64,000 bases of DNA from a virus (taxonomy: Duplodnaviria; Caudoviricetes). Location of the stretch: IMG/VR virus record IMGVR_UViG_3300028048_000054, one strand, 5' to 3'. Position 1 is the stretch's first letter, and every line of letters starts with the position of its first letter. Shown piece by piece: positions 54,809 through 54,925 of the stretch. The position numbers were made by a program, and so were the translations under genes. The notes beneath the pieces are model-generated. The model searched no databases. It was not told where the DNA came from and saw only the letters and a program-made list of their open reading frames with translations.

Positions 54809-54925
54809 TTTGGTGAGAATATTTAAGTTGGGTTTATTGCAATTGGAGTCGAACCAATATTCTCTTAATCTTCAGTTAAGTGTATAACCTTTATACGATG
54901 CAGCCAACTCAACCGCTTCACCAAA
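54809..54925 (-). ncRNA. Y RNA-like gene with unpermuted tRNA-Phe-like cloverleaf
   Basis: TTTGGTGAAGCGG...ATATTCTCACCAAA terminal helix; D arm, CTTAA-CTGAAGA-TTAAG, ATTGG-TTCGACT-CCAAT. Confidence 0.72.

What the first reader, a model, noticed from the sequence alone, without database searches (positions are those of the whole stretch)
54809..54925. Y RNA exposing an intact Phe-like anticodon loop (inverse of YrlA topology)
Seen: D, anticodon and T arms in normal order, with the acceptor stem continuing into the Ro-binding helix. Its loop CTGAAGA is identical to that of the phage tRNA-Phe (57204-57275). Known: canonical YrlA attaches via the anticodon stem and has no anticodon. Inference: an unchargeable anticodon decoy for nucleases, synthetases or the ribosome.
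Basis: partly seen in the sequence, partly recalled or inferred. Interest (0 to 1): 0.78.

Follow-up and report, generated by a model that had tools for sequence, protein, structure and literature searches.

The report
Phage Y RNA with whole-tRNA head
A rumen phage encodes, just after its Ro60 gene, a small RNA that joins the Ro60-docking stem of Y RNAs to an almost complete, normally ordered tRNA look-alike; this design recurs in many uncultured phages and I could not find it described.

Summary
Window 54810-54924 (minus strand) scores as a tRNA (ARAGORN Phe-GAA; Rfam tRNA 46.5 bits) with D, anticodon, variable and T parts in normal order. Its acceptor stem has only 4 Watson-Crick pairs. It runs through a junction into a 9-bp helix, a conserved internal loop and a 7-bp terminal helix.

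Eight homologues from other metagenomes keep every helix: 96% of cells are paired and 16 of 34 pairs change on both sides.

The terminal "handle" is shared with two neighbouring RNAs: a YrlA-type RNA at 54654-54802 and a short hairpin RNA at 57092-57181. All three flank a 544-aa Ro60/TROVE gene.

A strict form of the handle occurs 85 times in 54 of 80 unrelated phage Ro60 loci, always on the Ro60 strand. So this is a phage Y RNA, not an ordinary tRNA-Phe.

About 20 further "whole-tRNA" Y RNAs were found. Eighteen of the 21 keep a canonical 7-nt anticodon loop, but the triplet differs (GAA, UAA, UGU, UUU, GUA, GGU, UGA, CAA, GCU) and two lost the loop.

The decoy idea is untested, and Phe identity is not conserved. 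D. radiodurans Yrn1 already has this orientation. The verdict is a new variant of a known kind.

This scan has noted similar RNAs in other phage genomes.

The parts
54810..54924 (-). Whole-tRNA-type Y RNA, the finding (115 nt; ends inferred from the terminal helix, not mapped)
   Evidence: MFE fold. Covariation in 9 homologues. Model R1 scores 128.9 bits here and gives 0 hits in 0.74 Mb of control DNA.
54918..54924 (-). P1, 5' strand of the terminal helix. Its last bases plus the next loop read GGUGAAGCGG, the putative Ro60-binding motif.
   Evidence: 4 of 7 P1 pairs change on both sides and 100% are paired. The family consensus is N5-GAAGCGG. Compare GNCGAAN0-1G of Chen 2014.
54913..54917 (-). 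Handle internal loop, 5' side (AGCGG)
   Evidence: Invariant in all 9 homologues. Shared by the two neighbouring Y RNAs and by 85 modules in other phage Ro60 loci.
54904..54912 (-). P2, 5' strand (9-bp helix between handle and tRNA body)
   Evidence: 6 of 9 pairs change on both sides.
54899..54902 (-). Acceptor-like helix, 5' strand (4 bp, UGCA), followed by U8-C9-G10
   Evidence: Invariant. tRNA positions 1-3 do not form stable pairs.
54882..54896 (-). D arm (4-bp stem; loop with GG)
54864..54880 (-). Anticodon arm (5-bp stem; loop CUGAAGA; GAA at 54871-54873)
   Evidence: The stem covaries, with 3 pairs changed on both sides. The loop is the most variable region.
54842..54858 (-). T arm (5-bp stem; loop UUCGACU)
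54838..54841 (-). Acceptor-like helix, 3' strand
54832..54837 (-). Conserved 6-nt 3' bulge (AUAAAC) where a tRNA would carry discriminator plus CCA
   Evidence: Conserved in 8 of 9 homologues from two clades.
54823..54831 (-). P2, 3' strand
54817..54822 (-). Handle internal loop, 3' side (AUAUUC)
54810..54816 (-). P1, 3' strand
54654..54802 (-). Neighbouring YrlA-type Y RNA: same handle design with a different P1 sequence, and a permuted T arm - closed hairpin - D arm
   Evidence: Rfam YrlA 27.1 bits, E 0.0022, for 54691-54760. Its L004 orthologue matches the full-length YrlA model at 37 bits. Handle scan.
57092..57181 (-). Third, short hairpin Y RNA just upstream of the Ro60 start codon, with the same handle motifs
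   Evidence: Fold. Weak R1 hit. Orthologues at L003:1531-1616, L004:3901-3987, L008:29-114, L009:3903-3987 and L010:3904-3988.
55444..57078 (-). Ro60/Rsr orthologue (544 aa, TROVE domain)
   Evidence: Pfam TROVE 30.7 bits, above its cut-off of 23. 45% identity to Bacillus phage G gp540, annotated 'putative TROVE domain ribonucleoprotein'. Matches the Thermus phage phiLo Ro60 structures 9L5Y and 9KOP at E 2e-8.
54965..54993 (-). Sigma-70-type promoter (12 of 12 consensus, 17-nt spacer, TG extension), about 35 nt upstream of the RNA
   Evidence: The same promoter stands before the orthologues in L008 and L010.
57204..57275 (-). Bona fide phage tRNA-Phe(GAA) with the same anticodon loop
   Evidence: Rfam tRNA 63.6 bits with a full acceptor stem.

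Best explanation
This is a phage-encoded Y RNA, a small non-coding partner of the phage's own Ro60 (Rsr/TROVE) protein.

Its paired 5' and 3' ends form a 'handle': a 7-bp helix, an AGCGG/AUAUUC internal loop and a 9-bp helix. The handle carries the family's Ro60-docking motif on its 5' strand.

The other end is an effector module: a near-complete tRNA fold in native order, with a 4-bp acceptor stub, D arm, anticodon arm, variable loop and T arm. The acceptor end is fused to the handle and is therefore closed.

The RNA is transcribed from its own strong promoter together with a second Y RNA of the YrlA type, and is presumably cut out of the tRNA-array transcript.

By analogy with characterised Y RNAs, the handle holds Ro60 while the L-shaped tRNA head docks a protein that recognises tRNA shape. 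Published precedent points to host PNPase; a tRNA processing, modification, repair or cleavage enzyme is also possible. The head thereby tethers or gates Ro60.

Shown here: the structure, its conservation, the shared handle and the association of the handle with Ro60 genes. Inferred: Ro60 binding, the exact ends of the RNA, and the identity of the partner bound by the tRNA head.
For: 1. Context. The RNA starts 520 nt downstream of a 544-aa TROVE/Ro60 gene on the same strand.
2. Structure. All six helices are kept in 9 homologues whose Ro60 proteins are 60-82% identical to the window's. 96.1% of cells pair, 16 pairs have double changes, and slid controls give 34-46%.
3. Shared handle. The same design (P1 - AGCGG - P2 ... 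AUAUUC - P1') occurs in the adjacent YrlA-type RNA and in a third RNA upstream of Ro60, with different but complementary P1 sequences.
4. Association with Ro60. The strict handle occurs 85 times, all on the Ro60 strand, in 54 of 80 independent IMG/VR Ro60 loci. It occurs 10 times on both strands of 1.1 Mb of control contigs that had been selected for carrying part of the 5' motif.
5. Motif. The handle's 5' consensus N5-GAAGCGG includes exact GGCGAAG and CCGAAG versions. It overlaps the published Ro60/Rsr-contact motif GNCGAAN0-1G / GGUCCGA (Chen 2014) and the 'CGAA motif' of the phiLo Yrls shown to bind phage Ro60 (PMC12135203).
6. Not a normal tRNA. Acceptor pairs 1:72 and 3:70 are mismatched in the window and its closest homologues. 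There is no CCA. The anticodon is not conserved: GAA, UAA, or a 6-nt loop. A normal tRNA-Phe exists 2.3 kb upstream.
7. Specificity. Model R1 finds 12 more full-length members at 48-82 bits in other Ro60 loci and none in 0.74 Mb of control DNA.
Against: - There is no direct evidence of Ro60 binding or of the RNA's ends.
- The window's motif is GGUGAAG, one base off GNCGAAG.
- No Rfam Y-RNA family matches the element itself.
- The fold z-score alone is modest at -2.2.
- The 9 aligned homologues form only two main clades plus two outliers, so the independent compensatory events are fewer than the cell counts suggest.
- M. smegmatis YrlA is cleaved by RNase P and receives CCA, so processing of this RNA into a tRNA-like product cannot be excluded from sequence.
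Confidence: 0.8

Rival explanations
1. Anticodon decoy or sensor. The Ro60-bound RNA displays a genuine anticodon loop as bait for host anticodon nucleases or other anticodon-reading enzymes. It would soak them up, or trigger the RNP when cut. This is a sub-hypothesis about the head's partner and is compatible with the Y RNA assignment.
For: - 18 of 21 whole-tRNA Y RNAs keep a canonical 7-nt loop (pyrimidine-U-NNN-purine-A) while the triplet differs between near-identical RNAs: GAA/UAA and UGU/UUU.
- UUU (Lys) recurs in at least 3 separate loci groups. From my own knowledge, Lys-UUU is the classic target of phage-defence anticodon nucleases such as PrrC.
- The phages also carry real tRNAs with the same anticodons.
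Against: - The loop is the least conserved region, which relaxed constraint explains equally well.
- L008 and L014 replaced it by 6-nt loops yet keep the rest.
- Conservation is concentrated in the handle and the D/T elbow, as in YrlA.
- No anticodon nuclease or repair gene was identified next to the locus.
- No experiment bears on it.
Confidence: 0.15
2. An ordinary, or decaying, tRNA-Phe gene of the phage tRNA array. Its leader and trailer happen to pair, and it is processed by RNase P and RNase Z into a tRNA or pseudo-tRNA.
For: - ARAGORN and Rfam both call it a tRNA.
- All tertiary-interaction positions are present: U8, A14, GG in the D loop, UUCGA in the T loop.
- It sits in a 21-tRNA array.
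Against: - Two acceptor mismatches are conserved rather than repaired.
- The flanking helices covary strongly.
- The flanks carry motifs shared with non-tRNA Y RNAs next to Ro60 in dozens of phages.
- The anticodon changes to UAA, or is lost, in orthologues whose body is otherwise nearly identical.
- A second, canonical tRNA-Phe is present.
Confidence: 0.06
3. The handle is an RNA-processing or stability cassette of the polycistronic tRNA transcript, for example a double-strand RNase site, and is unrelated to Ro60 binding.
For: No terminators were found in the region, so processing must occur. Handles flank several different payloads.
Against: - Handles are restricted to the neighbourhood and strand of Ro60 genes. 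They do not flank the roughly 20 ordinary tRNAs of the same arrays.
- The motif resembles the known Ro60-contact sequence.
Confidence: 0.05

Closest known systems
YrlA (Y RNA-like A; Rfam RF02553; Salmonella, M. smegmatis, mycobacteriophages, Bacillus phage G; Chen 2014, Wang 2018)
   Same: It is encoded next to Ro60/Rsr on the same strand. It is modular, with a terminal stem carrying the Ro60 site plus a tRNA-like effector domain with a conserved D/T elbow. It occurs alongside a second, simpler Y RNA. A YrlA-type RNA with the same handle lies 7 nt downstream of this element.
   Different: YrlA is permuted (T arm, closed acceptor hairpin, D arm). It joins the Ro stem through the anticodon-stem position and has no anticodon loop. 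Here the order is native, the junction is at the acceptor end, and a canonical anticodon arm and variable loop are exposed. There is no RF02553 hit on the element.
Deinococcus radiodurans Yrn1 (Chen 2000, 2013, 2014)
   Same: The orientation is the same. The stem-loop between the D-like and T-like parts occupies the anticodon-arm position, and the 5'/3' stem binds Rsr.
   Different: As described, Yrn1 has a 6-nt 'anticodon' loop, no variable arm and no full D arm. The phage RNA is a full cloverleaf that tRNA finders accept, with a 7-nt loop identical to a real tRNA-Phe loop. No sequence relationship was detected.
Yrl1/Yrl2 of Thermus phage phiLo with phage Ro60 (NAR 2025, PMC12135203)
   Same: Both are phage-encoded Y-like RNAs beside a phage Ro60. 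Both have a 5'-3' stem with a CGAA-type motif. Binding to phage Ro60 and to host PNPase was shown for the phiLo RNAs. The window's Ro60 matches the phiLo structure at E 2e-8.
   Different: The phiLo Yrls are described as stem-bulge-stem RNAs without a tRNA-like domain; the paper never uses the term 'tRNA-like'.
Canonical tRNA-Phe (RF00005)
   Same: It has a cloverleaf body, tertiary-contact nucleotides and a GAA anticodon loop. It scores 46.5 bits.
   Different: The acceptor stem is reduced to 4 bp. There is no free 3' end or CCA. The ends are locked in a 16-bp extension with conserved loops. The anticodon is not conserved in orthologues.

Membership tests
Y RNA (Ro60/Rsr-associated ncRNA, functional class) | Encoded close to (within about 2 kb of) a Ro60/Rsr gene, and here on the same strand | tested here: met
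   The RNA starts 520 nt downstream of the TROVE gene 55444-57078, on the same strand. The same arrangement holds in 8 homologous loci.
Y RNA (Ro60/Rsr-associated ncRNA, functional class) | Long stem formed by the paired 5' and 3' ends, with an internal loop or bulge | tested here: met
   P1 (7 bp), an internal loop and P2 (9 bp). 10 of these 16 pairs show compensatory changes.
Y RNA (Ro60/Rsr-associated ncRNA, functional class) | Conserved 5'-strand Ro60-contact motif (GNCGAAN0-1G in bacteria, GGUCCGA in vertebrates) | tested here: inconclusive
   The window reads GGUGAAG, 6 of 7 positions. The family consensus is N5-GAAGCGG, and many members read GGCGAAG or CCGAAG exactly. The resemblance is clear, but the family's invariant core (AGCGG) extends beyond the published motif.
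Y RNA (Ro60/Rsr-associated ncRNA, functional class) | Physically bound and stabilised by Ro60 | not testable with these tools
   Needs co-immunoprecipitation or EMSA.
Y RNA (Ro60/Rsr-associated ncRNA, functional class) | Size about 80-130 nt | tested here: inconclusive
   115 nt if the ends coincide with P1. The ends are not mapped; only contigs of RNA libraries were available.
YrlA (Rfam RF02553) | Covariance-model score at or above the gathering threshold of 69 bits | tested here: not met
   No YrlA hit on 54800-54935 even at E up to 10. The neighbour at 54691-54760 reaches only 27.1 bits.
YrlA (Rfam RF02553) | Permuted tRNA-like domain (T arm, closed acceptor hairpin, D arm) attached through the anticodon-stem position, with no anticodon loop | tested here: not met
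   The order is D, anticodon, variable, T. The attachment is at the acceptor end, and a 7-nt anticodon loop is present.
tRNA (RF00005), functional tRNA-Phe | Cloverleaf scoring above the family threshold | tested here: met
   46.5 bits against a threshold of 29. ARAGORN calls Phe-GAA.
tRNA (RF00005), functional tRNA-Phe | 7-bp acceptor stem ending in a free 3' end (discriminator plus CCA, encoded or addable) | tested here: not met
   There are 4 Watson-Crick pairs plus one G-U. Positions 1:72 and 3:70 are mismatched in the window and in L003, L004 and L009. The strands continue into conserved, covarying helices. Whether RNase P or Z cut it in vivo cannot be tested here.
tRNA (RF00005), functional tRNA-Phe | Anticodon conserved among orthologues | tested here: not met
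   GAA in the window, L003 and L004; UAA in L009; a 6-nt loop in L008; UGU, UUU or a replaced arm in the second clade.
Yrn1-type Y RNA (D. radiodurans) | Ro stem joined at the acceptor side, with an anticodon-like arm between the D-like and T-like elements | tested here: met
   The architecture matches the description in Chen 2014 (fold).
Yrn1-type Y RNA (D. radiodurans) | Sequence or profile homology to Yrn1 | not tested
   No Yrn1 sequence was at hand. No Rfam family other than tRNA matched.

The most novel reading that the evidence does not exclude
Ro60-encoding phages carry a large, undescribed class of Y RNAs that display complete tRNA bodies with real, fast-changing anticodon loops on a constant Ro60 handle. 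These would act as baits or sensors for host anticodon nucleases or other anticodon-reading defence enzymes. The Ro60 particle would then be an anti-defence device or a tRNA-surveillance device tuned by swapping anticodons.
Probability: 0.15. Interest if true: 0.85.

Novelty: new variant of a known kind. Interest (0 to 1): 0.6.

Why it matters
Y RNAs and Ro60 are known in bacteria and a few phages. The partner of their tRNA-like module, and the purpose of Ro60 in phages, remain open.

- **New head design.** This RNA and its roughly 20 relatives show that phages graft three interchangeable heads onto one Ro60 handle: none, a permuted YrlA-type head, or a whole tRNA with an anticodon loop.
- **A route to the partner.** The whole-tRNA form offers a direct experimental route to the partner, through pull-downs with head variants. 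It also allows a test of whether the particle deals with tRNA damage or tRNA-targeting host defences.
- **Annotation.** tRNA finders call these RNAs tRNA genes, so phage tRNA inventories are inflated. Examples are a 'second tRNA-Phe', a 'tRNA-Leu(UAA)' and 'tRNA-Lys' calls.

Tried and rejected
- **blastn against cultured phages.** A search of 54600-55000 against INPHARED found nothing.
- **Single-protein Ro60 scans.** Scans of IMG/VR and of GTDB genomes found nothing. The metagenome scan gave one short contig without the RNA side.
- **No genome held.** No whole genome is held for this window.
- **15-mer scan of IMG/VR.** It returned only chance matches. I reused those loci as controls.
- **Public sequencing runs.** Two bovine-gut metatranscriptome studies hold contigs covering the element (X3: 54557-55355; X4: 54836-57300). 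They are contigs in RNA libraries that may contain DNA. They show neither transcription, strand nor ends, so I do not count them as evidence of expression or processing.
- **NCBIfam.** It gave no name for the Ro60 protein.
- **Reviews not held.** The Sim & Wolin reviews (PMC10870794, PMC6047535) are not in the library. I could not check whether whole-tRNA Y RNAs are mentioned there.
- **Recent duplication of tRNA-Phe, rejected.** I considered that the element is a recent duplicate of the phage tRNA-Phe. Only the loop matches; the stems differ throughout.
- **Intrinsic terminator, rejected.** I considered that the handle is an intrinsic terminator. None was predicted.

Full report
**What is there**

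The feature lies on the minus strand. ARAGORN calls a tRNA-Phe(GAA) at 54831-54906. Rfam's tRNA model scores 46.5 bits at 54834-54905 and flags non-standard pairs at acceptor positions 1:72 and 3:70.

An unconstrained fold of 54809-54925 gives these parts, from the outside in:
- a 7-bp terminal helix (P1)
- an internal loop (AGCGG opposite AUAUUC)
- a 9-bp helix (P2)
- a junction with a 6-nt 3' bulge
- a 4-bp acceptor-like helix
- a regular D arm, a 5-bp anticodon stem with the 7-nt loop CUGAAGA, a 5-nt variable loop and a T arm

The loop is letter-for-letter that of the canonical tRNA-Phe at 57204-57275.

**Context**

The window is a phage-like region from bovine-gut metagenomes with 21 tRNA genes on one strand.
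- The ORF at 55444-57078 (544 aa) is a Ro60/Rsr orthologue. It hits Pfam TROVE above threshold. It is 45% identical to gp540 of Bacillus phage G, annotated as a TROVE ribonucleoprotein. It matches the solved Ro60 of Thermus phage phiLo at E 2e-8.
- The element starts 520 nt downstream of this gene.
- A perfect sigma-70-type promoter (12 of 12, TG-extended) stands at 54965-54993, about 35 nt upstream. No terminator is predicted nearby.
- Directly downstream, 54654-54802 contains a weak match to Rfam YrlA, with the permuted order T arm, hairpin, D arm. Its orthologue in L004 aligns to the full YrlA model at 37 bits.

**Homologues and covariation**

The Ro60 protein has thousands of relatives. 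I fetched contigs for those 60-82% identical and 80 further IMG/VR loci through a Ro60 alignment.
- Orthologues of the element occur in L003, L004-L007, L008 and L009 (Ro60 81-82% identical).
- A second clade occurs in L012, L014, L135 and L213 (about 60% identical).
- On the MAFFT alignment of 9 distinct sequences, the proposed structure is 96.1% paired. Versions with partners slid by one to three columns give 34-46%.
- 16 of 34 pairs carry changes on both sides: P1 4 of 7, P2 6 of 9, D stem 1, anticodon stem 3, T stem 2. No shuffle in 500 reaches these values.
- The sequences fall into two clades plus two outliers, so independent events are fewer than cells. The signal is nevertheless consistent across all helices.

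**The handle is a Ro60-linked family signature**

The window's three RNAs share one design: this element, the YrlA-type neighbour, and a short hairpin RNA at 57092-57181 just before the Ro60 start codon. Each has P1, AGCGG and P2 on the 5' side, and (A/U)UAUUC and P1' on the 3' side. The P1 sequences differ but are mutually complementary.
- A strict scan required AGCGG, a 3' TTC or TAC, and seven complementary flanking bases. It finds 85 modules, all on the Ro60-coding strand, in 54 of 80 independent IMG/VR Ro60 loci.
- The same scan finds 10 modules over both strands of 1.1 Mb of control contigs. Those contigs had been picked for containing part of the 5' motif, so the control is conservative.
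- The 5' consensus is N5-GAAGCGG, followed about 9 nt later by GUUAC(U/A)UC.
- Many members read GGCGAAG or CCGAAG. That is the GNCGAAN0-1G / GGUCCGA motif that Chen et al. 2014 assign to Rsr/Ro60 contact. It is also the 'CGAA motif' of the phiLo Yrl RNAs that were shown to bind phage Ro60.
- The window's element reads GGUGAAG, one base off.
- This is the main basis for calling the RNA a Y RNA. Binding itself is inferred.

**Whole-tRNA Y RNAs are a recurrent design**

A covariance model built from the 9 sequences (R1) gave the following results.
- It finds 12 more full-length members at 48-82 bits in other Ro60 loci: L012, L014, L135, L190, L193, L198, L204 and L213.
- One further high-scoring match, L213:5925-6035, looks like a real tRNA-Lys with pairing flanks and has no handle motifs, so I do not count it.
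- Ordinary tRNAs match only locally, over model positions 23-88.
- The model gives no hit in 0.74 Mb of control DNA.
- Some members have a class II long variable arm (L012:5978-6104, L135:4983-5111, L213:5392-5515).
- In some the acceptor helix runs without interruption into P2 (L198:4973-5080).

Of the 21 such RNAs I tabulated from the model alignment:
- 18 keep a canonical 7-nt loop (pyrimidine, U, three bases, purine, A).
- The triplets are UUU (5), UGA (5), GAA (3), and one each of UAA, UGU, GGU, GUA, GCU and CAA.
- L008 and L014 have 6-nt loops, and one member is ambiguous.
- Near-identical RNAs differ by single anticodon substitutions: GAA to UAA, and UGU to UUU.
- Within the 9-sequence alignment, all 7 anticodon-loop columns vary. 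By contrast, only 2 of 11 handle-loop columns, 1 of 8 acceptor-like columns and 2 of 7 T-loop columns vary.

Payloads on orthologous handles are also swapped.
- L010 carries a hybrid head.
- L008 and L010 have lost the tRNA domain of the YrlA-type neighbour.
- A DNA contig of run X7 replaces that domain with other sequence.

**Interpretation**

The best reading is a phage Y RNA whose effector module is a non-permuted tRNA mimic. Conservation is concentrated in the handle, in the acceptor stub with U8-C9-G10, and in the D/T elbow. The same pattern is reported for YrlA. This points to recognition of tRNA shape by an unknown partner while Ro60 holds the handle.

Published precedent supports tethering of PNPase by Y RNAs in Deinococcus, Salmonella and phage phiLo.

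A canonical loop shape is usually kept, and Lys-UUU, a classic nuclease target, recurs. Three points weigh against giving it much weight:
- Phe identity is not conserved.
- Two members lost the loop.
- Relaxed constraint explains the variability equally well.

I put it at about 0.15.

An ordinary or decaying tRNA-Phe is unlikely (0.06), for these reasons:
- The acceptor mismatches are conserved.
- The flanks covary and carry Y RNA motifs.
- A canonical tRNA-Phe is present.

**Comparison with the known, and novelty**

Phage Ro60 genes and phage Y-like RNAs are known (Chen 2014; phiLo 2025; suspected in Listeria phage CKA15).
- Canonical YrlA is permuted and lacks an anticodon loop.
- D. radiodurans Yrn1 already has the 'inverse' orientation. 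It has a 5-bp anticodon-like stem, but a 6-nt loop, no variable arm and no full D arm.
- I found no description of Y RNAs carrying a complete cloverleaf with a canonical anticodon loop.
- Rfam 15 has no family that matches the element other than tRNA.

I therefore class it as a new variant of a known kind.

Earlier notes of this scan describe similar tRNA-headed Y RNAs beside Ro60-like genes in several other phage genomes, and the same three-RNA set in this genome. These are unreviewed AI notes. I re-derived the points I use.

**Limits**

Ends, expression, processing and protein binding are not shown. The only RNA-library data available were assembled contigs, which cannot show transcription or termini.

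Noticed in passing
window 54995-55100 (-); L008:2078-2210: A conserved G/C-rich segment lies between tRNA-Asp and the Y RNA promoter, with a long-range helix (GGGUUGGG ... CCCAACCC). It has no Rfam match, and its fold z-score is only -0.65. It may be an unrecognised small RNA or a transcript-end structure.
   Followed up: partly
L010:5914-6062: This RNA has an orthologous handle (same P1 core) but a hybrid payload: an anticodon-like arm with a 7-nt loop, a T arm, a closed acceptor-like hairpin and a degenerate D region (fold z -2.4). It looks like an intermediate between the whole-tRNA and YrlA designs.
   Followed up: partly
L008:2401-2474; L010:6068-6140; window 54650-54761 versus run X7: In close relatives the YrlA-type neighbour has lost or exchanged its tRNA-like domain while keeping the handle. 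Payloads are swapped on a constant handle.
   Followed up: partly
L012:5647-6104; L014:5654-6102; L135:4652-5111: Four tandem Y RNAs stand directly after Ro60: two short hairpins, one class I whole-tRNA type and one class II (long variable arm, Ser-like) whole-tRNA type.
   Followed up: partly
window 54926-54950 (-); also L003, L004, L008, L009: A conserved UAUUUGACAAUUU box lies immediately 5' of the element. It is a second -35-like hexamer without a matching -10, and may be a processing or antitermination signal.
   Followed up: no
window 54567-54649 (-): tRNA-Thr(UGU) has an 11-12 nt insertion in the variable region. This is unusual for Thr.
   Followed up: no
window 51845-52408 (-); 48578-49123 (-); 50534-51004 (-): A pyruvoyl-dependent arginine decarboxylase gene (Pfam E 2e-61) and HNH endonuclease genes are interspersed in the tRNA array.
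   Followed up: no
L001 (Bacillus phage G) 4400-4483, 4507-4607, 2763-2849: The cultured phage G has two short handle-bearing RNAs just upstream of its Ro60 gene gp540, and a weak YrlA match (36 bits) further upstream. None of the three is annotated in the record.
   Followed up: partly
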